Origin: Rickettsiales bacterium | GTDB lineage: Bacteria; Pseudomonadota; Alphaproteobacteria; Rickettsiales; UBA6187 | Assembly: GCA_028223895.1 (NCBI GenBank) | Contig: JAOIVE010000003.1 | Coordinates: forward strand, 5,537-69,536 | Direction of reading: 5' to 3' | DNA: 64,000 bases | In this document: in pieces, positions 3,588 to 11,422 of the stretch | How the letters are laid out: each line of letters starts with the position of its first letter | How positions within the stretch are numbered: the stretch's first letter is position 1 | The notes under the pieces: model-generated | Databases searched by the model: none | Told to the model about the DNA's origin: nothing | What the model saw: only the letters and a program-made list of their open reading frames with translations | Position numbers and translations under genes: made by a program

Positions 3588-4307
3588 ATGGGTAAAAAAT
3601 TACTTGAAGGAAAAATTGCAGTTGTAACTGGTGCTTCAAGAGGTATAGGTGCGGCAATATGTAAGCGTTATGCTAAAGAAGGCGCGCATGTGGTTATGGT
3701 TGCCCGCAGCGTCAATGAGATGGAATCTGTAGATGATGAAATTCAGGAAATAGGAGGTTCGGCAACTATTGTTCCTCTTGATTTGCAGGATTTTGACAAA
3801 ATTGATCAGCTTGGTGCTGGCCTTATGGAGCGTTTTGGCAAAATAGATATATTGGTTGGCAATGCCGGTGTATTGGGTGGTTTATCTCCAATTGATCATA
3901 TTGATCCAAAAATATGGCAAAATATTTTTGATGTAAATGTAACTGCAAATTATCGTTTGCTGCGTAGTTTGACTCCGCTTTTAAAGCAATCTGATGCTGG
4001 AAGGGCGTTATTTGTCAGTTCTGATGTTGCGCGAGGTGTTGTTCTGCATTGGGGAGCATATGCAGCAAGTAAAGCGGCGTTAGAAAAAATGGTAGAAATA
4101 TATGCAGCTGAAAATGAACATACAAATATTCGTGCCGCAATTGTCGATCCGGGTGCTGTTGCAACGGCGATGATGAATATATGGGCGCCGGGTGCTGATC
4201 AGGAAAAATTGACAAAGCCTGATGAAATAACGGATATATTTGTTGAATTATTACTTGAAGATAGCGATATAGAAGAGGGTGGTGTTTTCTACGCACAAAA
4301 TGGTTAA
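3588..4307 (+). CDS. SDR family oxidoreductase
   Basis: TGASRGIG Rossmann motif and YAASKAAL catalytic motif. Starts 5 nt after purF. Confidence 0.85.
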   Translation: MGKKLLEGKIAVVTGASRGIGAAICKRYAKEGAHVVMVARSVNEMESVDDEIQEIGGSATIVPLDLQDFDKIDQLGAGLMERFGKIDILVGNAGVLGGLSPIDHIDPKIWQNIFDVNVTANYRLLRSLTPLLKQSDAGRALFVSSDVARGVVLHWGAYAASKAALEKMVEIYAAENEHTNIRAAIVDPGAVATAMMNIWAPGADQEKLTKPDEITDIFVELLLEDSDIEEGGVFYAQNG

Positions 4308-4380: not shown

Positions 4381-4926
4381 TTAACTACGAACTCTACCTT
4401 GTGAAGATGCTCTTGATCCTGGTGTAAAATTTTCTGCGAAAGTTTCGGTAGGTTTAAAAGAATCCGCTTTTTCATTATCGGTAGCTGGAAATTTTTTTGC
4501 CCCAAATTTCTCAAGAATTCCTATAACATCAGTAATATTATTTCTTATAGCAAAGTCCAGTGGAGTTTCTTGAGTTAATGTTTTTTCTTCTTCTTCATCG
4601 TCATCTAGGGTTATGCTATCAAAATTTAATGGTCTATTTATATCTGCTCCTTTTTCAACAAGAGTTCTTATAACTTCAATTGTACCTTTGAGTTTATCAC
4701 CATTTTCTTGATTATCGCCAGATGCTTTTACTAATAATAGATGTAATGGCGTAAAGCCTGATATTTCTTTGTCTAAATCTTCTTGCTCTTCTTTTATAAT
4801 TCTTTTTGCTTCTTCATATTTACGATTTATAATGTTGTAATGTAGTGGACTTGATTTAATCTTTAAAATAACGTCACCAGATTTAGACATATTTTTAGCC
4901 CCTATATTTAAATCTTTTATTAACAC
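4381..4926 (-). CDS. ankyrin-repeat protein (small, orphan)
   Basis: TPLHLLL...LVEKGADIN and TPLDFAIRNNITDVIGILEKFGA are ankyrin units. The start may be the internal MSKSGD. Confidence 0.7.
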   Translation of the reverse strand: MLIKDLNIGAKNMSKSGDVILKIKSSPLHYNIINRKYEEAKRIIKEEQEDLDKEISGFTPLHLLLVKASGDNQENGDKLKGTIEVIRTLVEKGADINRPLNFDSITLDDDEEEEKTLTQETPLDFAIRNNITDVIGILEKFGAKKFPATDNEKADSFKPTETFAENFTPGSRASSQGRVRS

Positions 4927-5072: not shown

Positions 5073-6215
5073 TTAGCGCTGGTTTGTTGATTTATTAGGT
5101 TTGAAAGAGTGCTCCTCTGTGGGCCATCTTCGTGCTATTACTTTTAATAAATGTTCTGGCAATGCTTGCGTATCTAAAATATCTTTTATGGTTGGCTTAA
5201 CTCTTTCAAATTTATAATCTGTTGCTGCGTTTTCTGTCTTAACTTTCGTACCTAATAAAAAGCTAAACTTTTGGCCATCAGCATATTCAGAAACTTCTTT
5301 ATTAATAATATTTGCAGCTAAAAACAACAAGGATGCAGGGTTCTTACAAGGCTTTAGTTCATGGCTCATGTTTTCAGATGATAGCACAATTTGCACCATA
5401 GGATAAAAATGCGATTTTTTTCCAATATTTCCGCCATTATTTGCAGCTTCTGTCTTTAATGCTTTTTTTACATGTTCTGGATTTAAAATAGTGTTTTTCT
5501 CTTTAGGATTTTTCTCTTTAGAATCTTTCTTTACTACACAAACGTTATTAATCATTTCTTCAAAAACTGTTTTACCAAGATTTTGTTCAATAAGGTTTAA
5601 TTGTTCTTGTGTAACTATAATGCCGCTAATAAGTTCTGCATTTTCAAGTAAAATTGGCAATATTTTATTTTCAAAATTGTCAAATTTAATATTAAGAAAG
5701 TTTTTTGCTCCATTTTCTATAAGTTTTCTTCTTATATTTTCACCGTTGGCATTTAGACTATTATTGTCAAGTGGTGTTGAATTACTATTGTCGATAATAT
5801 TTACATCAGCGCCATTATCAATAAGTTTTAAGGCAATTTCTTCTTGGCAAAAAAAAGCAGCCCAATGTAAAGGAGATTCTTTGTATAGGTTTAAGGCATT
5901 TACGTTAGCCCCGTTTTCTATTAATAGTGTTGAAATTTCTTCGTTACCTTTTTTAACTGCAATATAAAGTGGTGTCTCCCACATTTTTCCACAAATTAAA
6001 TTTACATCAGCTCCGTTTTCTATCAGGATTTTTACAATTCTCGTATTGCCTTTTAAAACAGCCTTATAAAGTAAGGTGTTATTATTGAGATCTTTATAAT
6101 CCAGATTCACACCTTCAATCAGGTTCTCATTAAATTTTTCGATATTATCTTCTTCTATATTTTTAAATAATTCTTTTATAGCAGATAAAAACACATTACT
6201 TTGGGTGGTAGTCAT
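5073..6215 (-). CDS. ankyrin-repeat protein
   Basis: At least four consecutive units of the form (N)TLLYKAVLKGNTRIVKILIENGADVN, followed by a non-repeat C-terminal half. Confidence 0.8.
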   Translation of the reverse strand: MTTTQSNVFLSAIKELFKNIEEDNIEKFNENLIEGVNLDYKDLNNNTLLYKAVLKGNTRIVKILIENGADVNLICGKMWETPLYIAVKKGNEEISTLLIENGANVNALNLYKESPLHWAAFFCQEEIALKLIDNGADVNIIDNSNSTPLDNNSLNANGENIRRKLIENGAKNFLNIKFDNFENKILPILLENAELISGIIVTQEQLNLIEQNLGKTVFEEMINNVCVVKKDSKEKNPKEKNTILNPEHVKKALKTEAANNGGNIGKKSHFYPMVQIVLSSENMSHELKPCKNPASLLFLAANIINKEVSEYADGQKFSFLLGTKVKTENAATDYKFERVKPTIKDILDTQALPEHLLKVIARRWPTEEHSFKPNKSTNQR

Positions 6216-6243: not shown

Positions 6244-9200
6244 TTAAGAGGCAATATTTATTATATTTTCCAATGACTTGCGCGTTCCTTTTAGTCGCTC
6301 GTCTGAAGAGTTGTATTCTTTAAAAATTACTAATTTCTGATCTCCACGTAATTTGGTAGTAAGTGGATTTTTGGTGATATAGGTAATTAAAGCTTCAGGA
6401 TTCTTAAACTTATCATTATGAAATTTTAAAGTAATTCCTTTTGGTCCTGCATCAATTTTTTCAACTCCGGCTTTAATGCATAAAATTTTAATTTTCATGA
6501 TTTCAAGTAAGTTATGTAGTGGTTCTGGTAATGCACCAAAGCGATCAACCAGCTCAACGGCAATTTCTTCTACATCATCATTTTCCTGTAAATTAGCAAT
6601 ACGGCGATATAGACCCATGCGCAGTTGCAGGTCGGAAACATAATCTTCAGGAATCATAACCGATATGCCCATATTTATATTAGGGCTGAAACTTTCATCA
6701 GATTCATCATCGCCAGTTGATTCTGCTTTTGCCCGCTCAATTGCTTCTTTTAGCATCGCCTGATAAAGTTCAACGCCAACTTCCTTTATTTGCCCTGATT
6801 GCTCATCTCCTACAAGATTACCAAATCCACGAATATCCATATCGTGACTGGCAAGGGTAAAGCCAGCGCCAAGTGAATCAAGATTTTGCATAATCTCTAA
6901 TCGTTTCATAGCAATTTCACCGGGTATGCGCTTTGGAGGAGTGGTCAAATATGCATAAGCTCGGACTTTTGACCGACCAACGCGACCACGCATTTGGTAT
7001 AATTGAGACAGGCCAAACATATCAGCACGATAAACAATTATGGTATTTGCCATAGGTAAATCTATACCAGAGCCGACAATATTAGTTGATAGCAGTACAT
7101 CATAATGACCATCATAAAAATCATTCATTGTCTGATCCAACTCATTAGGAGTGAGCTGCCCATGGGCGCGGGTTAATTTTACTTCAGGTACTAATTTTGC
7201 AAGTTTTTCATGCACCTCATCGAGATCTTTAATACGAGGAACTACAAAAAACGTCCGTCCTCCACGATAAAATTCCCGCAAAATTGCATTGCGGATAACT
7301 ACCGGATCAAATGGCATTGTATATGTGCGAATTGCAAGGCGATCAACTGGCGGTGTGGCGATCAGGCTTAAATCTTTAATGCCGCTAAGAGACATTTGCA
7401 ATGTACGTGGTATTGGAGTAGCTGATAAGGTTAATATGTGAATATTTGAACGCATCTGCTTAAAGCGTTCTTTTTGGGCTACACCAAATTGCTGTTCTTC
7501 ATCAATGATTACCAGACCCAAATCCTTAAACTCAATAGATTTTGCCAGCAGAGCATGTGTGCCAATAACAATATCAACTTTACCTTCTTTAAGACCGGAT
7601 TTTGTTTCTTTTGCTGATTTTGCAGATGTTAAACGACATAACATTCGCACCTCAAATGGCATGCCAGCAAAACGCTCTTTGAATGTTTTATAATGTTGGC
7701 GGCATAATAGGGTAGTTGGGGCAATAAGAGCAACCTGCTTGTGTTCGCCATCACTTGCTGCAATAAATGCTGCGCGCAGCGCAACTTCAGTTTTTCCAAA
7801 TCCAACATCACCGCAGATAAGTCGATCCATAGGTTTGCCTGAGGAGAGATCTTGCGCAACCTCTTCAATGCAACGCAATTGATCGTCAGTTTCGGCATAT
7901 GCAAAGCGAGAGCAAAATTCTTCATATAAACCTTCCATAGGACGCATTGGCTGACCTTTACGAAGAGCGCGAGCTGCTGCGGTTTTAAGTAAATCTTCAG
8001 CAATAATTTTAATGCGTTTTTTAAGGCTAGCTTTGCGTGATTGCCATGATGTATGACCTAATTTATCAAGTTTTGCCGTTTCATTATCTGATCCATAGCG
8101 TGAAAGAACGTCAATATTTTCTACAGGAACATATAATTTATCGCCATTTGCATAAATGATACGCAGGCAGTCATGGTTTTCACCAGATATATTAAGTGTT
8201 TCAAGTTCTTCAAAGCGTCCAATTCCATGATCTTTATGAACAACAAGCTCGCCTTTTGACAGGCTGGATACTTCCTGTAGGAAATTATCACTACGCTTTG
8301 ATTTAGCTTTTTTGCGACCAAGGCGCGTGCCAAGCAGATCCTGCTCAGAAATAAGAATGAAATCAGGATGTTCAAAGCCATGTTCAATATCAAGAATTAC
8401 AAGGCCAATAACATTTTCAGATAATTTTTTTATTCCCGACCATTTATCAATAAACTGCCCGACATAATCATGTTCTTTTAATATGGATTTAATCCGCTCG
8501 CGCGAGCCAACAGAATAACAGCTTATAAGGATTGGGCGTTTGTCATTTTTATTATGAGTAACAAAATTCATCAGATAGTCGCCAAAAATTTCAACTGCGT
8601 TAACGCGGGTTGCTTTTGACTGGACAGAAAAATCCGGCACTGATTTTAAGGGGAGGGAGTTAACATGAGCATTTTCAATGAGCTGGTTATCTCTTTGACC
8701 CCTCACCCCAACCCTCTCCCCAAAGAGGGAGAGGGAGTTAGAGCTGTAATTTTCAACCCTCTCCCCAGAGGGGGAGAGGGGGTTAGAGTAGTTATTTTCA
8801 ACCCTCTCCCCAAAGAGGGAGAGGGAGTTAGAGCTGTAATTTTCAACCCTTCCTTTTTCTATTCCCTCTCCCTCTTTGGGGAGAGGGTTAGGGTGAGGGG
8901 TATTTCCTGAAATCTGGTGAGGGGTATTTTTTAAAACACTTTGAATATTTTCCAGAACCCCTTCTAAATTCTCGATAACCTGATTATTCCAGAAGCGAAT
9001 AACTCTATAGCCCTTAGACTCTAAAAATTTAGTTCTTTTTTTATCATGCTCTTTTTGCTCAGCATGCTGACCACCATCAAGTTCAATAATAAGTTTTTTA
9101 TCCAAACATACGAAATCAACTATATATTTTTCTATATCATGTTGCCTGCGAAACTTATATCCGCCAAATCTGCGGCCTCTTAGCTCACTCCATAATTTTT

Positions 9201-10581
9201 TTTCTACTTCTGTCTGGTTTTTTCTTAAATTGCGAGCATTTTCAATGAGCTGGTTATCTCTTTGACCCCTCACCCCAACCCTCTCCCCAAAGAGGGAGAG
9301 GGAGTTAGAGCTGTAATTTTCAACCCTCTCCCCAAAGAGGGAGAGGGAGTTAGAGCTGTAATTTTCAACCCTTCCTTTTTCTATTCCCTCTCCCTCTTTG
9401 GGGAGAGGGTTAGGGTGAGGGGTATTTCCTAAAGTCTGGTGAGGGGTATTTCCTGAAATCTGGTGAGGGGTATTTCCAACCCTATCTCCTAAGGGTGAGA
9501 GGGGGTTATAAGCAGTTGCAGACTCAACATTAAATGGATTTGCATATAGACATTTAAAAGCAGAACTTTGTTGTTCCCAATCTTTTTCTGTTAAATATAA
9601 TAAATCTGGTTCAATTGGGTGGTAATTGTCGCTAGCAGAAAAACCTAACTCTTTAACGTTGGAACGCGATTGAAAATAATCATCAACCAGATCATGTCTT
9701 TCATGACGGGCTTCAGCGGCTAAATGGTCGAAAAATATTATTGTATTTTGCGGTAAATATTCAAAGAAACTATCCATATGAGGATAAAATAATGGCAGCC
9801 AGTGTTCCATGCCTGCATAATGGCGACCGGCAGAAATCGCCTCATATAAAGGATCGCTTTTTGTCACAGCACCAAATTTTTCACGATATTGTTTGCGAAA
9901 CAGGCTTATATTTTCTTCATCCAATAAAACTTCAGAAGCCGGCATAATTGATAAATTATCGCTTTTGCCACCGCTAATTTGAGTTAATGGATCAAAAAAG
10001 CGGATATTTTCAACTTTATCACCAAAGAAATCAAGACGATAACCTTGCTCGCTGCCGCAAGGAATAATGTCTAATATACTTCCCCTTATTGCAAATTCAC
10101 CGGCCTCATTGGCAGTTGGAGAGTTTATATAGCCGCTTCTTACTAAATGACGGACAAAATCTTCACGATCTAAAATATCGCCAATATTAACCTTGGTGGC
10201 TAAATTAACCAATAGTTCCTGTGGTGGTAACTTTTGCAGCAAGCTGTTTACGGTGGTTAATATAACCGTCTTTTTCTTAGGATTGTTTTTAAGCAGTAAC
10301 AATTCACATAAGCCTTCTGTGCGGGCGCTTGCAATATGCGGGGCAGGGGAGATACGATCATATGGCAGGCAATCCCATGCCGGAATAAATATAATGGAGC
10401 TATTTGGCTCAATCATTTTTATATTAGCTGCCAGACTGTTCATTCTTTTGTCATCGCGAACAACGGCAAGTATTGGTAAATCGCTCTGTTTTTGTAATTG
10501 AGTAATAAGAAACCCTTCCGCCCCTTCATAAAGGGGGGATAAAATATTTTTCTGCGCTAGGTTCCTTATATCTATTAACAT
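6244..10581 (-). CDS. mfd: transcription-repair coupling factor Mfd carrying an in-frame insertion of about 280 aa
   Basis: UvrB-homology N-terminus and RNAP-interaction region (KGELVVHKDHGIGRF). Helicase motifs GDVGFGKTEVA, IIDEEQQFGV, LSATPIPRTL and QMRGRVGRS. It is 1445 aa against 1148 aa for E. coli Mfd. Confidence 0.93.
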   Translation of the reverse strand: MLIDIRNLAQKNILSPLYEGAEGFLITQLQKQSDLPILAVVRDDKRMNSLAANIKMIEPNSSIIFIPAWDCLPYDRISPAPHIASARTEGLCELLLLKNNPKKKTVILTTVNSLLQKLPPQELLVNLATKVNIGDILDREDFVRHLVRSGYINSPTANEAGEFAIRGSILDIIPCGSEQGYRLDFFGDKVENIRFFDPLTQISGGKSDNLSIMPASEVLLDEENISLFRKQYREKFGAVTKSDPLYEAISAGRHYAGMEHWLPLFYPHMDSFFEYLPQNTIIFFDHLAAEARHERHDLVDDYFQSRSNVKELGFSASDNYHPIEPDLLYLTEKDWEQQSSAFKCLYANPFNVESATAYNPLSPLGDRVGNTPHQISGNTPHQTLGNTPHPNPLPKEGEGIEKGRVENYSSNSLSLFGERVENYSSNSLSLFGERVGVRGQRDNQLIENARNLRKNQTEVEKKLWSELRGRRFGGYKFRRQHDIEKYIVDFVCLDKKLIIELDGGQHAEQKEHDKKRTKFLESKGYRVIRFWNNQVIENLEGVLENIQSVLKNTPHQISGNTPHPNPLPKEGEGIEKGRVENYSSNSLSLFGERVENNYSNPLSPSGERVENYSSNSLSLFGERVGVRGQRDNQLIENAHVNSLPLKSVPDFSVQSKATRVNAVEIFGDYLMNFVTHNKNDKRPILISCYSVGSRERIKSILKEHDYVGQFIDKWSGIKKLSENVIGLVILDIEHGFEHPDFILISEQDLLGTRLGRKKAKSKRSDNFLQEVSSLSKGELVVHKDHGIGRFEELETLNISGENHDCLRIIYANGDKLYVPVENIDVLSRYGSDNETAKLDKLGHTSWQSRKASLKKRIKIIAEDLLKTAAARALRKGQPMRPMEGLYEEFCSRFAYAETDDQLRCIEEVAQDLSSGKPMDRLICGDVGFGKTEVALRAAFIAASDGEHKQVALIAPTTLLCRQHYKTFKERFAGMPFEVRMLCRLTSAKSAKETKSGLKEGKVDIVIGTHALLAKSIEFKDLGLVIIDEEQQFGVAQKERFKQMRSNIHILTLSATPIPRTLQMSLSGIKDLSLIATPPVDRLAIRTYTMPFDPVVIRNAILREFYRGGRTFFVVPRIKDLDEVHEKLAKLVPEVKLTRAHGQLTPNELDQTMNDFYDGHYDVLLSTNIVGSGIDLPMANTIIVYRADMFGLSQLYQMRGRVGRSKVRAYAYLTTPPKRIPGEIAMKRLEIMQNLDSLGAGFTLASHDMDIRGFGNLVGDEQSGQIKEVGVELYQAMLKEAIERAKAESTGDDESDESFSPNINMGISVMIPEDYVSDLQLRMGLYRRIANLQENDDVEEIAVELVDRFGALPEPLHNLLEIMKIKILCIKAGVEKIDAGPKGITLKFHNDKFKNPEALITYITKNPLTTKLRGDQKLVIFKEYNSSDERLKGTRKSLENIINIAS
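8667..8929. repeat. G+C-rich nested palindromic repeat, copy 1 (three 45-bp units)
   Basis: Outer inverted repeat CCCCTCACCCCAACCCTCTCCCC...GGGGAGAGGGTTAGGGTGAGGGG. Inner 45-bp tandem units each carry the CCCTCTCCC/GGGAGAGGG hairpin. Confidence 0.9.
8932..9233 (-). other. DUF559 / Vsr-like PD-(D/E)xK endonuclease domain embedded in Mfd
   Basis: ARNLRKNQTEVEKKLWSELRGRRFGGYKFRRQHDIEKYIVDFVCLDKKLIIELDGGQHAEQKEHDKKRTKFLESKGYRVIRFWNNQVIENLEGVLENI fits the family consensus end to end. Confidence 0.8.
9234..9507. repeat. G+C-rich nested palindromic repeat, copy 2 (two 45-bp units, three 24-bp units)
   Basis: Starts with the same GAGCATTTTCAATGAGCTGGTTATCTCTTTGACCCCTCACCCC as copy 1 and differs only in unit copy number. 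Confidence 0.9.
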
Positions 10582-10684: not shown

Positions 10685-11422
10685 ATGAGCAGCGGTAAAG
10701 GGGCAGAGAATCCTAAAGTGAGTGTTGGGGGATTTGACGATGTTGCGTTGACTAAATCAAGTAACCAGAAAAGTGATAAGGTAAGAAGTAATAAAAAATC
10801 TTCTGATAATACTTCTCTTTTGTATACTTACATTAGAAATGGCGCATCTGAGAGTGCTATAAAAACGCTTATATTAAAAGATAAAACTTTACTGAGTAAG
10901 CTAGATTCAGAGGGGGAAACGGCTCTTGATATTGCTGTTGAGGAAAAAAACTATGAGGCAGTAAATATAATCTGTTCCTCATATAAAAAAAATACAATAA
11001 AAGATGAAACTATGTATCTTACAATTGTTAATGCGTTGATTTCAAAGGAGTATGATATTGCGGCCTTAATTATTGAAGCTGCAAGTGAAGAACAAGTTGA
11101 AAAAGCTAGAAATTTCTTAAAAGCTGATACTACAAACACAATAATGAAAAAAGGATTAGGAAGCTTGGCCTGGATTGTTTCCGAGCTAAATATTCATGAT
11201 TCTATGAAAAAGATAAAAAAATTTGATGAAGAAAAAGATAAGCCAACTGATCTGGACGAAGCTTTTGAAGAAATATTAATAGCAAATGCAGTAAGACATG
11301 ATAATGGATATGGAGAACTTTTTTCTTCTCTTTATAAAGAACAAGCCTTTTCATATTATAATGAAGATAAATCAAAATCCTGGACAGATAGAGTAGCTGG
11401 TGGAAATGAGAAAGCTCGCTAA
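10685..11422 (+). CDS. hypothetical protein with one ankyrin-like unit (orphan)
   Basis: GETALDIAVEEKNYEAVNII is ankyrin-like. Divergent from mfd. N-terminus MSSGKG. Confidence 0.5.
   Translation: MSSGKGAENPKVSVGGFDDVALTKSSNQKSDKVRSNKKSSDNTSLLYTYIRNGASESAIKTLILKDKTLLSKLDSEGETALDIAVEEKNYEAVNIICSSYKKNTIKDETMYLTIVNALISKEYDIAALIIEAASEEQVEKARNFLKADTTNTIMKKGLGSLAWIVSELNIHDSMKKIKKFDEEKDKPTDLDEAFEEILIANAVRHDNGYGELFSSLYKEQAFSYYNEDKSKSWTDRVAGGNEKAR

What the first reader, a model, noticed from the sequence alone, without database searches (positions are those of the whole stretch)
8667..9507. Intact DUF559 (Vsr-like) endonuclease domain with flanking palindromic repeats inserted in frame inside mfd
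The reverse-strand ORF 6244..10581 is one uninterrupted 1445-aa Mfd, against 1148 aa for E. coli Mfd. Residues about 359-639 have no counterpart in canonical Mfd. They sit after the UvrB-homology module and before the D3/RNAP-interaction region, so in a linker. The centre of the insert (nt about 8932-9233) is a full-length DUF559 / PD-(D/E)xK Vsr-like endonuclease domain (ARNLRKNQTEVEKKLW...IVDF...ELDGGQH...RVIRFWNNQV). This family normally occurs as small free-standing ORFs. It is bracketed by two direct copies of a G+C-rich palindromic repeat of about 265-275 bp whose starts are exactly 567 bp (189 codons) apart, so everything stays in frame on the mfd strand.

Two readings fit. One is a selfish nuclease-plus-repeat cassette that colonised a tolerant linker of a repair gene without breaking it, like in-frame Rickettsia palindromic elements but carrying an enzyme. 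The other is a domesticated nuclease fused to the stalled-RNAP translocase. I am not aware of either being a described arrangement for Mfd.
Basis: partly seen in the sequence, partly recalled or inferred. Interest (0 to 1): 0.85.

Follow-up and report, generated by a model that had tools for sequence, protein, structure and literature searches.

The report
Nuclease cassette inserted in-frame in mfd
A small nuclease gene (DUF559, related to Vsr and to a homing endonuclease), bracketed by known but unexplained "BoxC" triplex-forming repeats, sits in-frame in a linker of the repair gene mfd; the same cassette occurs in many unrelated bacterial genes, which points to a selfish element and links BoxC repeats to a nuclease.

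Summary
ORF 6244..10581(-) encodes an intact 1445-aa Mfd with an 840-nt (280-codon) in-frame insert at 8668..9507. The insert lies in the D1b-D3 linker and is absent from every orthologue examined.

The insert holds one intact DUF559 domain (Pfam E=4.5e-44). All family-invariant residues are present, and the predicted fold matches 3HRL and the homing endonuclease I-Bth0305I.

The flanking "palindromic repeats" are not anonymous. They are four perfect copies of the BoxC / PIT / TMECO intrastrand-triplex motif, in inverted pairs, plus extra hairpin units. This motif has been known in E. coli since the 1990s and has no assigned function.

The unit [triplex motif - DUF559 - inverted triplex motif] is general. 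It was found at 44 of 69 unrelated metagenome DUF559 loci and at 0 of 183 controls, and both the stems and the third strands covary. Most copies are free-standing. Others sit in-frame inside RecO, RecG, TruB, IleRS, NadE, TrpF, HsdS and more.

Best reading: a selfish nuclease-plus-repeat element, here a partly decayed tandem array, tolerated in a disordered linker. Domestication by Mfd is unlikely. How the element moves is inferred, not shown. I found no description of the DUF559-BoxC link in the searched literature.

The parts
6244..10581 (-). mfd (transcription-repair coupling factor), one intact 1445-aa ORF that includes the insert
   Evidence: All Mfd Pfam domains are present. The closest orthologues are 1153-1179 aa.
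8668..9507 (-). The insert: 840 nt = 280 codons (aa 359-638), in the linker between the UvrB-homology module and D3
   Evidence: Clean gap in the orthologue alignment. The site maps to about residues 350-352 of E. coli Mfd. Anatomy.
8926..9234 (-). DUF559 body (RNLRKNQT...SVLKN). The Pfam match covers 8932-9249.
   Evidence: - Pfam E=4.5e-44.
- PDB by sequence: 3hrl E=1.3e-28, 3r3p (I-Bth0305I) E=0.004.
- All 12 family-invariant residues are present, including D131, E142, D144 and H148 in insert numbering.
- AF2 core pLDDT is above 90. Foldseek gives 3hrl TM 0.87 and I-Bth0305I TM 0.74.
9235..9264 (-). 30-nt leader (QRDNQLIENA), the N-terminal start of the DUF559 reading frame
   Evidence: It aligns with the N-termini of free-standing homologues.
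9265..9302 (-). Proximal upstream TIR (TIR-L): a full BoxC/TMECO triplex motif (hairpin CCCTCTCCC-TCTTTG-GGGAGAGGG, then TTG, then third strand GGGTGAGGGG)
   Evidence: Exact match to the published TMECO consensus, with 0 expected by chance. Inverted-repeat arms.
8864..8901 (-). Proximal downstream TIR (TIR-R): the same motif inverted. Read in the mfd frame it gives TPHPNPLPKEGEG.
   Evidence: Together with 9265-9302 it bounds a 439-nt core element, 9302..8864.
8902..8925 (-). 24-bp unit (ACCCCTCACC + AGATTTCAGGAAAT, read as NTPHQISG) between the DUF559 body and TIR-R
   Evidence: The same 'NPHQISS-NPHP' duplication is seen in the unrelated locus L005.
9386..9507 (-). Left-end module. It consists of a diverged L-type hairpin h0 (9480-9503), two 24-bp units (9424-9471) and a full inverted triplex motif (9386-9423). 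I read it as a DUF559-less deletion derivative of the element.
   Evidence: h0 is 84% identical to the hairpin consensus.
9303..9385 (-). Inter-element spacer (38 nt, 9348-9385) plus one 45-bp hairpin unit (9303-9347)
8736..8863 (-). Inter-element spacer (8826-8863) plus two 45-bp hairpin units (8781-8825 and 8736-8780)
8668..8735 (-). Right-end stub: a full triplex motif (TIR-L type, 8698-8735) plus a second copy of the 30-nt DUF559 leader (8668-8697), joined directly to Mfd codon 639
   Evidence: The junction lies inside the nuclease reading frame, not at a TIR end.

Best explanation
The insert is a selfish DNA element that has lodged in-frame in a flexible linker of mfd without breaking the gene.

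Its core is a unit of about 440 nt. This is a DUF559 nuclease gene (Vsr / I-Bth0305I fold) bounded by two inverted copies of the BoxC / PIT / TMECO motif. Each motif is a G+C-rich hairpin followed by a third, mirror-repeat purine strand that can fold back into an intrastrand DNA triplex.

In mfd the element is present as a short, partly decayed tandem array:
- a nuclease-less derivative;
- a spacer with hairpin units;
- one full element;
- a second spacer;
- a 68-nt stub of a third copy.

The total is 840 nt and one frame is open. Mfd is therefore translated with a folded nuclease domain of about 115 aa held between two arms of about 80 aa that are predicted to be disordered.

Shown here: the anatomy, absence from orthologues, intactness of the nuclease, recurrence of the same bracketed unit across unrelated bacteria and host genes, and stem and third-strand covariation of the repeats.

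Inferred: that the nuclease drives spread. Most likely it nicks or cuts at, or next to, triplex/hairpin motifs or empty sites, and the element is then copied in by recombinational repair (homing-like, or analogous to REP/RAYT). Also inferred: that insertions survive in essential genes only when they keep the frame and fall in tolerant loops.
For: 1. The insert is specific to this lineage.
- None of the 120 best Mfd relatives carries PF04480.
- The closest orthologues show a clean gap.
- In 1.84e9 representative proteins the best hit to aa 250-800 is an ordinary Mfd that matches the flanks only.

2. The nuclease is intact.
- Pfam E=4.5e-44 over the full profile.
- All invariant residues are present.
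- The fold matches 3hrl and the catalytic domain of homing endonuclease I-Bth0305I.

3. The flanks are element ends, not random repeats.
- There are four exact matches to the TMECO consensus, all inside the insert, in inverted pairs, with 0 expected by chance.
- Each flank module folds as a perfect stem of about 38 bp (RNA z=-11, DNA z=-7.3).

4. The unit is general.
- The best inverted repeat across the DUF559 core scores at least 16 in 44 of 69 metagenome loci. None of 183 shifted controls does (maximum 11).
- 68 of 84 loci have a hairpin of at least 8 bp after the box, with 57 distinct, covarying stems.
- The third strand follows the purine-triplex mirror rule in 99 of 144 TIRs, against 36% of controls.

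5. Host contexts are diverse.
- In-frame hosts include RecO, TruB (41/41-nt TIRs, 444 nt), IleRS, RecG, TrpF, NadE, an aminotransferase, CCA-adding enzyme, HsdS and methyltransferases.
- One free-standing copy is wedged into an ABC-transporter operon with overlapping stops and starts.
- Tandem DUF559-DUF559 proteins exist.

6. A solo triplex-type hairpin sits at the same linker site in another Mfd.

7. Signs of recent activity or gene conversion: the two flank modules differ by 2 substitutions plus one 45-bp unit.

8. Literature.
- Vsr-like nucleases are established homing endonucleases (PMC2677866, PMC3239194).
- TM/BoxC loci are unusually rearranged between E. coli strains (PMC4666352).
- DUF559 genes are 14-fold enriched among predicted inversion targets (PMC9881135).

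9. In E. coli K-12, the DUF559 gene ycjD ends in a degenerate hairpin. A remnant of a second DUF559 3' end and a full TMECO follow it.
Against: - No mobility was observed. There is no second copy in the 64-kb window, and the rest of the genome could not be reached.
- No target-site duplication and no common target sequence were found, so the insertion chemistry is unknown.
- The element encodes a nuclease only, with no transposase or recombinase.
- The right junction lies inside the nuclease frame rather than at a TIR end. The present structure has therefore been remodelled, or it arose by illegitimate recombination.
- About a third of DUF559 loci lack clear TIRs, including the Undibacterium genomes.
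- The RecO insertion has co-diverged with its host. In that case it behaves as a stably inherited domain rather than an actively moving element.
- GC3 of the nuclease (0.26) equals that of the host gene (0.28), so it is not a recent import from a distant genome.
- At least one DUF559 protein (Caulobacter VsrA) is proposed to be a repair enzyme (PMC12907096).
- Read-level support for the assembly is unavailable.
Confidence: 0.78

Rival explanations
1. Domesticated fusion. Mfd of this lineage has recruited the DUF559 nuclease as a working domain, for example to nick DNA at stalled RNA polymerase, and the repeats are leftovers of the acquisition.
For: - The nuclease is fully intact and in frame.
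- The insertion lies next to the UvrA-recruiting module.
- In RecO an in-frame DUF559 has been kept, with catalytic residues, across hosts only 53-89% identical, so long-term retention inside repair proteins does occur.
- Several hosts are DNA-repair proteins: RecO, RecG, EndoIII and Mfd.
Against: - It is found in one genome only.
- The flank modules are about 99% identical, so the structure is young or still being homogenised.
- The same cassette with the same ends sits in IleRS, NadE, TrpF, TruB and an aminotransferase, where a nuclease has no plausible role.
- The arms are repeat-encoded and predicted to be disordered.
Confidence: 0.07
2. Assembly artefact. A repeat-bracketed DUF559 locus from elsewhere in the genome, or from another organism, was joined into mfd by the assembler, or the number of modules is mis-assembled.
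For: - The insert is bounded by near-identical repeats of 213-258 nt and contains tandem 45-bp units. Such regions are the kind that short-read assemblers mishandle.
- The contig is a singleton in the protein database and could not be found in the public collections.
Against: - Both junctions are in frame and no Mfd residue is lost. The alignment to orthologues resumes exactly across the gap.
- Only one of six frames is open over 840 nt.
- GC3 of the nuclease matches the host gene.
- Analogous in-frame insertions appear in many independent assemblies, including 12 RecO genes.
- A wrong module count would still be a multiple of 45 nt and would not change the conclusion.
Confidence: 0.07
3. An ordinary repair or housekeeping nuclease gene with regulatory hairpins. 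DUF559 is a Vsr-type mismatch endonuclease, and the flanking hairpins are RNA-level stabilisers or translation regulators. The mfd case is then a chance gene fusion created by a rearrangement at unstable triplex repeats, and no element is mobile.
For: - Caulobacter VsrA (DUF559) is functionally tied to a cytosine methyltransferase.
- Hairpins upstream of free-standing endonuclease genes have been read as translational regulators (PMC2677866).
- In free-standing copies the upstream motif lies just before the start codon.
- TM motifs promote rearrangements (PMC4666352).
Against: - The two ends are inverted copies of each other, up to 50 nt long, which regulation does not require.
- The third-strand covariation follows a purine-motif triplex rule. 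According to PMC4666352 that triplex forms in DNA, not RNA.
- Precise in-frame placement inside more than 15 unrelated genes, with host sequence intact on both sides, is not what random rearrangement gives.
Confidence: 0.08

Closest known systems
BoxC / PIT / TMECO intrastrand-triplex repeats (E. coli BoxC, 1990s; Hoyne et al. 2000; Holder et al. 2015, PMC4666352)
   Same: The four TIR motifs in the insert match the published consensus CCCTCNCCC-N3-6-GGGNGAGGG-N3-GGGNGAGGG exactly. The 'TTA/TTG' second loop and the occurrence as closely spaced inverted pairs are also shared. In related loci the stems and third strands covary as a triplex requires.
   Different: In E. coli these repeats were described as always intergenic, not linked to mobile elements, and without a known function or partner protein. 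The paper never mentions an endonuclease. Here they bracket a nuclease gene and are translated inside a protein.
Vsr-like (EDxHD) homing endonucleases, e.g. I-Bth0305I (Dassa et al. 2009, PMC2677866; Taylor et al. 2011, PMC3239194)
   Same: The nuclease fold is the same (3r3p: sequence E=0.004; Foldseek TM 0.74). They also occur as selfish inserts in DNA-metabolism genes, sometimes as 'stand-alone inserts' without an intron or intein.
   Different: Those sit in group I introns, in split-intein 'fractured' genes, or break the host gene into two ORFs. They carry extra DNA-binding modules. Here there is no intron, no intein and no fracture: the nuclease is read through as part of the host protein and is bounded by triplex-motif TIRs.
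REP / RAYT units (REPtrons, REPINs). This comparison rests on my own knowledge of Nunvar et al. 2010 and Bertels & Rainey 2011.
   Same: A single-copy enzyme gene is flanked by inverted copies of a short G+C-rich hairpin repeat that is also scattered in many solo or clustered copies around the genome. This is the best analogy for how the system may work.
   Different: RAYTs are HUH/Y1 transposases. Here the enzyme is a PD-(D/E)xK Vsr-like nuclease, and Pfam found no Y1_Tnp domain. REPs are not triplex motifs. RAYT units are not known, to my knowledge, to sit in-frame in host genes.
Rickettsia palindromic elements (RPE; Ogata et al. 2000, from my own knowledge)
   Same: [quoted passage not shown] Related Mfd genes carry other in-frame palindromic inserts.
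   Different: RPEs are non-coding elements of about 100-150 bp with no enzyme, and they are not BoxC-like. Sequence relatedness was not tested and is not expected.
ShiLan-type insertion in a phage methylase (Arsenault et al. 2025, PMC11855218)
   Same: A non-splicing, stop-free insertion that stays in the host protein and carries a homing-type endonuclease.
   Different: There the HNH nuclease is encoded out of frame within the insert, the host is a phage gene, and no flanking TIR or triplex repeats are reported. Here the nuclease is in the host frame.
Inteins
   Same: An in-frame selfish insertion, often carrying a nuclease, often in DNA-repair or replication genes.
   Different: No Hint/intein domain was found by Pfam, and there are no splice-junction residues (the insert starts NPLSP and ends IENA|H). 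The flanks are repeat-encoded and predicted to be disordered. The insert is presumably not removed from the protein.

Membership tests
DUF559 (PF04480; Vsr-like PD-(D/E)xK nucleases) | Pfam HMM score above the gathering threshold over the full domain | tested here: met
   149.2 bits against a cut-off of 20.6, E=4.5e-44, profile positions 3-108 of 109.
DUF559 (PF04480; Vsr-like PD-(D/E)xK nucleases) | Conserved active-site signature (D...E-x-D-G..H) and other family-invariant residues | tested here: met
   All 12 invariant columns of a 121-sequence alignment are present: W106 F119 Q122 D131 E142 D144 G145 H148 D155 R158 R171 W173.
DUF559 (PF04480; Vsr-like PD-(D/E)xK nucleases) | Vsr-like alpha/beta fold | tested here: met
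   The AF2 core has pLDDT above 90. Foldseek gives 3hrl TM 0.87 (E 4e-8), I-Bth0305I TM 0.74 (E 1e-4) and Vsr 1cw0 E 0.02.
DUF559 (PF04480; Vsr-like PD-(D/E)xK nucleases) | Nuclease activity | not testable with these tools
   Needs biochemistry.
Mfd / TRCF | Full domain set (UvrB-homology, D3, RNAP-interaction domain, SF2 translocase, TRCF C-terminal domain) in the canonical order | tested here: met
   The protein is 61-64% identical to Mfd orthologues outside the insert, with hundreds of invariant columns kept. It aligns to E. coli Mfd structures at E=6e-63.
BoxC / PIT / TMECO intrastrand-triplex motif | Match to the consensus CCCTCNCCC-N3-6-GGGNGAGGG-N3-GGGNGAGGG | tested here: met
   Four exact matches, at 8700-8735(-), 8864-8899(+), 9267-9302(-) and 9386-9421(+), with 0 expected in shuffles. 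The consensus comes from PMC4666352.
BoxC / PIT / TMECO intrastrand-triplex motif | The third strand is a mirror repeat of the purine arm (purine-motif triplex potential) | tested here: met
   In the window, GGGGAGAGGG pairs with GGGTGAGGGG. Across related loci 99 of 144 TIRs obey the rule at 85% or more, against 36% of controls.
BoxC / PIT / TMECO intrastrand-triplex motif | Triplex actually forms (CD, NMR or footprint) | not testable with these tools
   Shown for the E. coli motif in PMC4666352, not for this sequence.
BoxC / PIT / TMECO intrastrand-triplex motif | Intergenic location (as described for E. coli K-12) | tested here: not met
   Here all copies lie inside an ORF and are translated. 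This is a property described for one genome rather than a strict definition of the family.
Homing endonuclease gene | The nuclease is encoded within an insertion that is present or absent at one site of a conserved gene | tested here: met
   Present here and absent in all orthologues.
Homing endonuclease gene | Embedded in a self-splicing intron or intein, or free-standing between genes | tested here: not met
   No intein or Hint domain. No intron or ribozyme family in Rfam, only sub-threshold hairpin-like hits. The insert is read through in frame.
Homing endonuclease gene | Cleaves the empty allele and is copied in by repair | not testable with these tools
   Needs cleavage and homing assays.
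Transposon / MITE with terminal inverted repeats | Terminal inverted repeats | tested here: met
   38-nt TIRs here. TIRs of 16-50 nt occur in 44 of 69 related loci and in 0 of 183 controls.
Transposon / MITE with terminal inverted repeats | Target-site duplication | tested here: not met
   No consistent direct repeat flanks the TIRs in five well-defined loci or here.
Transposon / MITE with terminal inverted repeats | Encodes, or depends on, a transposase (DDE, HUH or serine/tyrosine) | tested here: not met
   The only protein domain in the unit is DUF559 / MTES_1575.
Transposon / MITE with terminal inverted repeats | Multiple copies in one genome | tested here: inconclusive
   No other copy in the 64-kb window. 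The rest of the genome could not be found.
REP/RAYT unit | Enzyme gene flanked by inverted copies of a dispersed hairpin repeat | tested here: met
   In E. coli K-12 there are 23 TMECOs (PMC4666352), and a TMECO lies beside the DUF559 gene ycjD.
REP/RAYT unit | The enzyme is an HUH Y1 (IS200/IS605-like) transposase | tested here: not met
   Pfam shows only DUF559.
Intein | Hint domain blocks and splice-junction residues (N-terminal C/S; C-terminal HN followed by C/S/T) | tested here: not met
   No Pfam intein family. The junctions are Y|NPLSP and IENA|HVN.
Rickettsia palindromic element | Short non-coding palindromic element inserted in-frame in ORFs | tested here: not met
   It is in-frame and palindromic, but it carries a complete enzyme domain, and its ends are BoxC-type motifs. 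Similarity to RPE consensus sequences was not tested.

The most novel reading that the evidence does not exclude
BoxC / PIT / TMECO triplex repeats have been an orphan repeat family for about 30 years. They may be the ends and the non-autonomous derivatives of a widespread, undescribed class of nuclease-only mobile elements whose enzyme is DUF559. The nuclease would recognise the hairpin/triplex DNA structure, which would account for the genomic instability reported at TM loci. The element would spread by repair-mediated copying. It could also colonise essential genes in-frame and be expressed as a passenger domain of the host protein, as in this Mfd.
Probability: 0.4. Interest if true: 0.85.

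Novelty: new variant of a known kind. Interest (0 to 1): 0.72.

Why it matters
1. It gives two orphan features a testable partner. BoxC/PIT/TM repeats (function unknown; 23 copies in E. coli K-12) and the very abundant DUF559 domain would relate as a repeat and its nuclease. The test can be run in E. coli K-12 itself, with YcjD and BoxC.

2. It shows a way for a nuclease gene to persist inside essential genes without an intron or intein. It is simply translated through, on arms predicted to be disordered and encoded by its own terminal repeats. This adds to the known range of selfish elements in coding sequence.

3. For annotation, 'fusion proteins' such as RecO-DUF559, TruB-DUF559 and Mfd-DUF559 should be read as host gene plus passenger, not as new multidomain enzymes.

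4. A nuclease tethered to the protein that binds stalled RNA polymerase and recruits UvrA could affect mutagenesis or repair in this organism. That is unlikely, but it is cheap to test.

Tried and rejected
Searches that led nowhere
- Exact 26-mer of the hairpin in genome contigs and in metagenome contigs: 0 hits in each. The source genome and sister strains could not be reached, so there is no empty-site or copy-number test.
- Exact look-up of the 1445-aa protein: not on record.
- Genome-contig scan with the DUF559 protein: only 6 loci, several without TIRs.
- My first hairpin pattern had the wrong loop length and found nothing. I corrected it.

Ideas tested and rejected
- Intron or ribozyme: Rfam gave only sub-threshold matches resembling miRNA precursors, which reflect the long hairpins.
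- Intrinsic terminators inside mfd: none on the mfd strand within the insert.
- Defence-system membership: PADLOC gave only a weak 'homing endonuclease' model hit, E=3.8e-6.
- Intein: no domain and no junction residues.
- Classical transposition: no target-site duplication and no transposase.

Ideas left open
- That the 3' arm of the upstream hairpin serves as a Shine-Dalgarno sequence. Only 27 of 66 free-standing copies have an SD-like motif at the right distance, which is not convincing.
- That the relatives' longer Mfd proteins carry the same repeat. One checked at the DNA level (P0027) has a different palindromic family.

Other
- RecO was looked for in the window as a possible donor copy: absent.
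- Literature searches for DUF559 / COG2852 / YcjD, for Vsr-like homing endonucleases with palindromes, and for MITEs with Vsr found no description of the DUF559-BoxC unit or of in-frame DUF559 elements. Only open-access papers and bioRxiv were searched.

Full report

Yes. The minus-strand ORF 6244..10581 is one uninterrupted 1445-aa reading frame. Pfam finds every Mfd module in canonical order: UvrB_inter at aa 131-217, MFD_D3 at 681-749, CarD_TRCF_RID at 774-829, then DEAD, Helicase_C and TRCF. In addition it finds a full-length DUF559 domain at aa 445-550 (E=4.5e-44, 149 bits against a gathering score of 20.6, profile positions 3-108 of 109).

Among 5456 Mfd relatives, the 120 best are 1118-1289 aa long and none carries PF04480. 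In an alignment with 14 of them, the closest orthologues (61-64% identical overall) show a clean gap over query residues 359-638, and the alignment resumes without loss of any Mfd residue. The insert is therefore 840 nt (9507..8668), or 280 codons.

Aligned to E. coli Mfd structures, the site falls at about residues 350-352, between 'PTKAANA' and 'NLGFQKLPDL'. This lies after the UvrB-homology module and before D3, and it is a stretch that also varies in length among relatives.

A profile-free HMMER search of 1.84 billion representative proteins with residues 250-800 returned an ordinary Mfd as best hit. That hit matched only the two flanks. No protein combined Mfd flanks with DUF559.

**2. 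Anatomy**

On the mfd strand the insert reads as follows:
- a diverged hairpin h0 (9503-9480);
- two 24-bp units, ACCCCTCACC + AGATTTCAGGAAAT (9471-9424);
- a 38-nt motif 'R' (9423-9386);
- a 38-nt spacer and one 45-bp hairpin unit (9385-9303);
- the inverted motif 'L' (9302-9265);
- a 30-nt leader encoding QRDNQLIENA (9264-9235);
- the DUF559 body (9234-8926);
- one 24-bp unit (8925-8902);
- 'R' again (8901-8864);
- a spacer and two 45-bp units (8863-8736);
- 'L' again (8735-8698);
- a second copy of the 30-nt leader (8697-8668), joined directly to Mfd codon 639.

L and R are reverse complements of one another (39-nt arms, 97% complementary). The core element is thus L-leader-DUF559-R, 439 nt (9302..8864). 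The material on either side looks like the junctions of a tandem array. The left part is a nuclease-less derivative (L-type hairpin + 24-bp units + R, 122 nt). The right end is a 68-nt stub of a further copy. The pieces sum to 840 nt.

The two flank modules (213 and 258 nt) differ by two substitutions and one 45-bp unit. Each folds into a perfect stem of about 38 bp (RNA -144.6 kcal/mol, z=-11; DNA z=-7.3).

Only the mfd frame is open across both flanks and the nuclease. Every other frame has 1-14 stops per segment.

The flanks are 49-50% G+C, the nuclease is 33% and the host gene 39%. GC3 of the nuclease (0.26) matches that of the host gene (0.28).

**3. The nuclease**

By sequence the domain matches PDB 3hrl (Neisseria gonorrhoeae 'endonuclease-like protein', E=1.3e-28). 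It also matches 3r3p, the catalytic domain of the group-I-intron homing endonuclease I-Bth0305I (E=0.004).

An AlphaFold model built on 121 homologues has a confident core (residues 81-194 of the insert, pLDDT mostly above 90). Both repeat-encoded arms have pLDDT 36-59 and no secondary structure.

Foldseek returns 3hrl (TM 0.87), I-Bth0305I (TM 0.74, E=1e-4) and, more weakly, E. coli Vsr. All twelve invariant columns of the family alignment, including D131, E142, D144 and H148, are intact. The domain therefore looks functional.

**4. What the repeats are**

A literature search on the motif strings led to Holder et al. 2015 (PMC4666352). The motif is the BoxC / PIT / 'TMECO' element, with consensus CCCTCNCCC-N3-6-GGGNGAGGG-N3-GGGNGAGGG. 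It consists of a G+C-rich hairpin followed by a mirror-repeat purine strand that folds back into an intrastrand DNA triplex.

That paper reports the following for E. coli K-12:
- 23 copies;
- 'always intergenic';
- not associated with mobile elements;
- two loop types (TTA and CCG);
- five closely spaced inverted pairs;
- no known function;
- an association with local genome rearrangement.

The paper does not mention any endonuclease.

The window contains exactly four matches to this consensus. All are inside the insert, two on each strand, with none expected by chance. There are seven matches to the hairpin part alone, also all inside the insert.

**5. The unit is general**

At the DNA level the arrangement [hairpin+box] - DUF559 - [box+hairpin] is found in unrelated loci:
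- a RimM N-terminal fusion (L004);
- a RecO insertion (L002);
- a free-standing copy wedged between ABC-transporter genes with overlapping stop and start codons (L005);
- a TruB insertion with perfect 41-nt TIRs (L013);
- an IleRS insertion with a different but still self-complementary hairpin (L014).

In 80 metagenome loci retrieved with a DUF559 core profile, 69 had full flanks. I scored the best inverted repeat between the 150 nt upstream and the 150 nt downstream of the domain. It scores at least 16 in 44 of the 69 loci (median 21). None of 183 position-shifted controls reaches 16 (median 8, maximum 11). Units are 400-560 nt long.

Downstream hairpins of at least 8 bp follow a CCCTCACCC-type box in 68 of 84 loci, with 57 distinct 5' arms whose partners change in step. 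The third strand also changes with the stem according to the purine-triplex mirror rule. Examples are GGGGGAGGG/GGGTGGGGG, AGGGGGAAGG/GGATGGGGGT and GGGAGAGGA/AGGTGAGGG. The rule holds at 85% or more in 99 of 144 TIRs, against 36% when third strands are paired with stems from other loci.

Holder et al. state that purine-motif triplexes form in DNA but not in RNA. This three-way covariation therefore points to a constraint at the DNA level.

In E. coli K-12 the DUF559 gene ycjD ends in a degenerate hairpin. It is followed by a remnant of a second DUF559 3' end, and a full TMECO lies about 170 nt downstream.

No consistent target-site duplication was seen.

**6. Contexts**

Most copies are small free-standing genes. 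The median extension beyond the domain is 5.5 aa at the N-terminus and 14 aa at the C-terminus, and 1 of 80 is embedded while about 9 of 80 are fused.

Embedded copies are nevertheless numerous in absolute terms. Among the 120 closest relatives of this insert, 24 lie inside larger proteins. Hosts identified by domains on both sides are:
- RecO, TruB, IleRS, HrpA, TrpF, EndoIII-like, GNAT, methyltransferases and HsdS;
- RecG, with the insert inside the DEAD domain;
- NadE (in the interdomain linker), a class I/II aminotransferase, CCA-adding enzyme/poly(A) polymerase, and an Eco57I-type enzyme with two copies.

A nuclease has no plausible role in many of these hosts. That argues for a passenger rather than for functional fusions.

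The twelve RecO cases share one insertion site. Host and nuclease identities correlate (host 53-89%, nuclease 49-92%, r=0.65). An in-frame copy can therefore be inherited vertically for a long time with its catalytic residues intact.

The window's nuclease is 61-70% identical to these RecO-borne copies. recO is not in the window.

One Mfd relative (P0004) has a solo box+hairpin, read as 'SPLPNPPPHTGEG', at exactly the same linker site. Other relatives carry in-frame palindromic inserts of a different repeat family at other linkers.

**7. How it most likely works**

Shown:
- an intact Vsr/I-Bth0305I-type nuclease bracketed by inverted BoxC/TM motifs forms a recurrent unit of about 0.4-0.5 kb;
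- the unit occurs at many unrelated sites, including in-frame positions;
- here it sits in a linker, its translated ends are predicted to be disordered, and the host gene is otherwise intact.

Inferred:
- the unit is mobile and the nuclease is its agent;
- with no transposase and no target duplication, the most economical model is homing-like. The nuclease nicks or cuts at structured motifs, solo motifs or empty sites, and the unit is copied in by recombinational repair, with the repeats providing recognition, homology or both;
- solo and clustered BoxC motifs would be its non-autonomous derivatives, much as REPs relate to RAYT;
- insertions in essential genes survive only if they preserve the frame and fall in tolerant regions, which gives the pattern seen.

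The present mfd structure (array, internal deletion, right junction inside the nuclease frame) shows later remodelling. This is consistent with the instability reported for TM loci and with the 14-fold enrichment of DUF559 genes among predicted inversion targets (PMC9881135).

I put about 0.8 on 'selfish passenger element' and about 0.4 on the specific nuclease-driven, structure-targeted mechanism.

**8. Rivals**

- Domestication by Mfd is possible but unsupported. The insert is in a single genome, the repeats are young, and the same cassette sits in metabolic enzymes.
- An assembly artefact cannot be excluded without reads. It is unlikely given the two exact in-frame junctions, the single open frame, the host-like GC3 and the many independent parallels.
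- A non-mobile 'repair gene with regulatory hairpins' does not explain the inverted identity of the ends, the DNA-type triplex covariation, or the precise in-frame placement in many genes.

**9. Novelty**

The parts are known: Mfd, DUF559, BoxC/TM motifs, Vsr-like homing endonucleases, in-frame palindromic elements, and a recently described non-splicing endonuclease insertion in a phage methylase (PMC11855218).

I could not find described, in the open-access literature searched, any of the following:
- the pairing of DUF559 with BoxC/TM motifs as a unit;
- the in-frame colonisation of housekeeping genes by that unit;
- its presence in Mfd.

I rate it a new variant of a known kind.

**Context of the window**

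The window is 36% G+C. Three ankyrin-repeat proteins flank mfd, and radA, cvpA and purF are nearby. The nearest named Mfd relatives are alphaproteobacterial and Rickettsiales MAGs. This suggests a host-associated alphaproteobacterium.

Noticed in passing
window 4381-4926(-), 5073-6215(-), 10685-11422(+): Three ankyrin-repeat proteins immediately flank mfd in a 36% G+C window. This suggests an intracellular or host-associated alphaproteobacterium.
   Followed up: partly
window 32650-33059 (inside ORF 31563-33452, +): A 183-bp tandem repeat (2.2 copies, 92% matches), followed by a 24-bp repeat, lies inside a 629-aa ORF with no Pfam hit.
   Followed up: no
window 25662-27563(-) and 27688-29340(-): Two adjacent large ORFs (633 and 550 aa) have no Pfam family at E<=1e-4.
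   Followed up: no
window 8665-8910(+): An 81-aa plus-strand ORF reads through the repeat array antisense to mfd (PLPKEGEG... repeats). It is almost certainly a by-product of the stop-poor repeats, not a gene.
   Followed up: partly
L001 about 3981-4025 (mfd of P0004, Logan ERR14369873): A solo degenerate box+hairpin (GCCCCCTCCCCAACCCTCCACCGCATACGGGAGAGGG, read as SPLPNPPPHTGEG) sits at the same D1b-D3 linker site of another Mfd. It is either a footprint or landing pad, or an independent hit at a tolerant site.
   Followed up: partly
L096 1843-1910 and 3138-3258 (mfd of P0027): A related Mfd (1289 aa) carries in-frame palindromic inserts of a different repeat family (AAGGGA-type arms of 24-31 nt) at other linker sites. 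Five other long relatives (1244-1266 aa) have similar low-complexity inserts.
   Followed up: partly
P0127, P0131, P0132, P0138, P0141, P0146, P0158, P0166, P0196, P0201, P0216, P0233; L002 4377-4787: A clade of alphaproteobacterial RecO proteins carries DUF559 plus TIRs at one fixed site (LPxFL|...|LAGxxLTGYFLE). The nuclease co-diverges with the host (r=0.65), which means long-term vertical retention.
   Followed up: yes
L044 1310-3466: A RecG gene has DUF559 inserted inside helicase domain 1 (the DEAD match is split). This is another SF2 repair translocase hit by the element.
   Followed up: partly
L005 5001-5558: A free-standing DUF559 unit is wedged into an ABC-transporter operon with 4-nt overlaps to both neighbours. 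Its downstream end has the same 'NPHQISS-NPHP...' duplicated box as the window.
   Followed up: partly
L097 11206-11761 (E. coli K-12 NC_000913.3 about 1351205-1351760): ycjD, a DUF559 gene of E. coli K-12, ends in a degenerate hairpin. A fragment of a second DUF559 3' end and a full BoxC/TMECO motif follow it before fabI. I did not find this link noted in PMC4666352.
   Followed up: partly
P0121, P0122, P0248: Proteins with two DUF559 domains in tandem, separated by hairpin-derived peptides. This is consistent with tandem arrays of the element.
   Followed up: no
L022, L080: In some metagenome loci the strongest inverted pair has the box outermost and the hairpin innermost (R...L) at greater spacing (459-540 nt), as in the outer modules of the window. 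Nested or arrayed copies may be common.
   Followed up: no
L007, L008, L010, L012 (Undibacterium and other Betaproteobacteria): DUF559 genes 46-51% identical to the window's show no detectable TIRs in the flanking 260 nt. The association is frequent but not universal.
   Followed up: no
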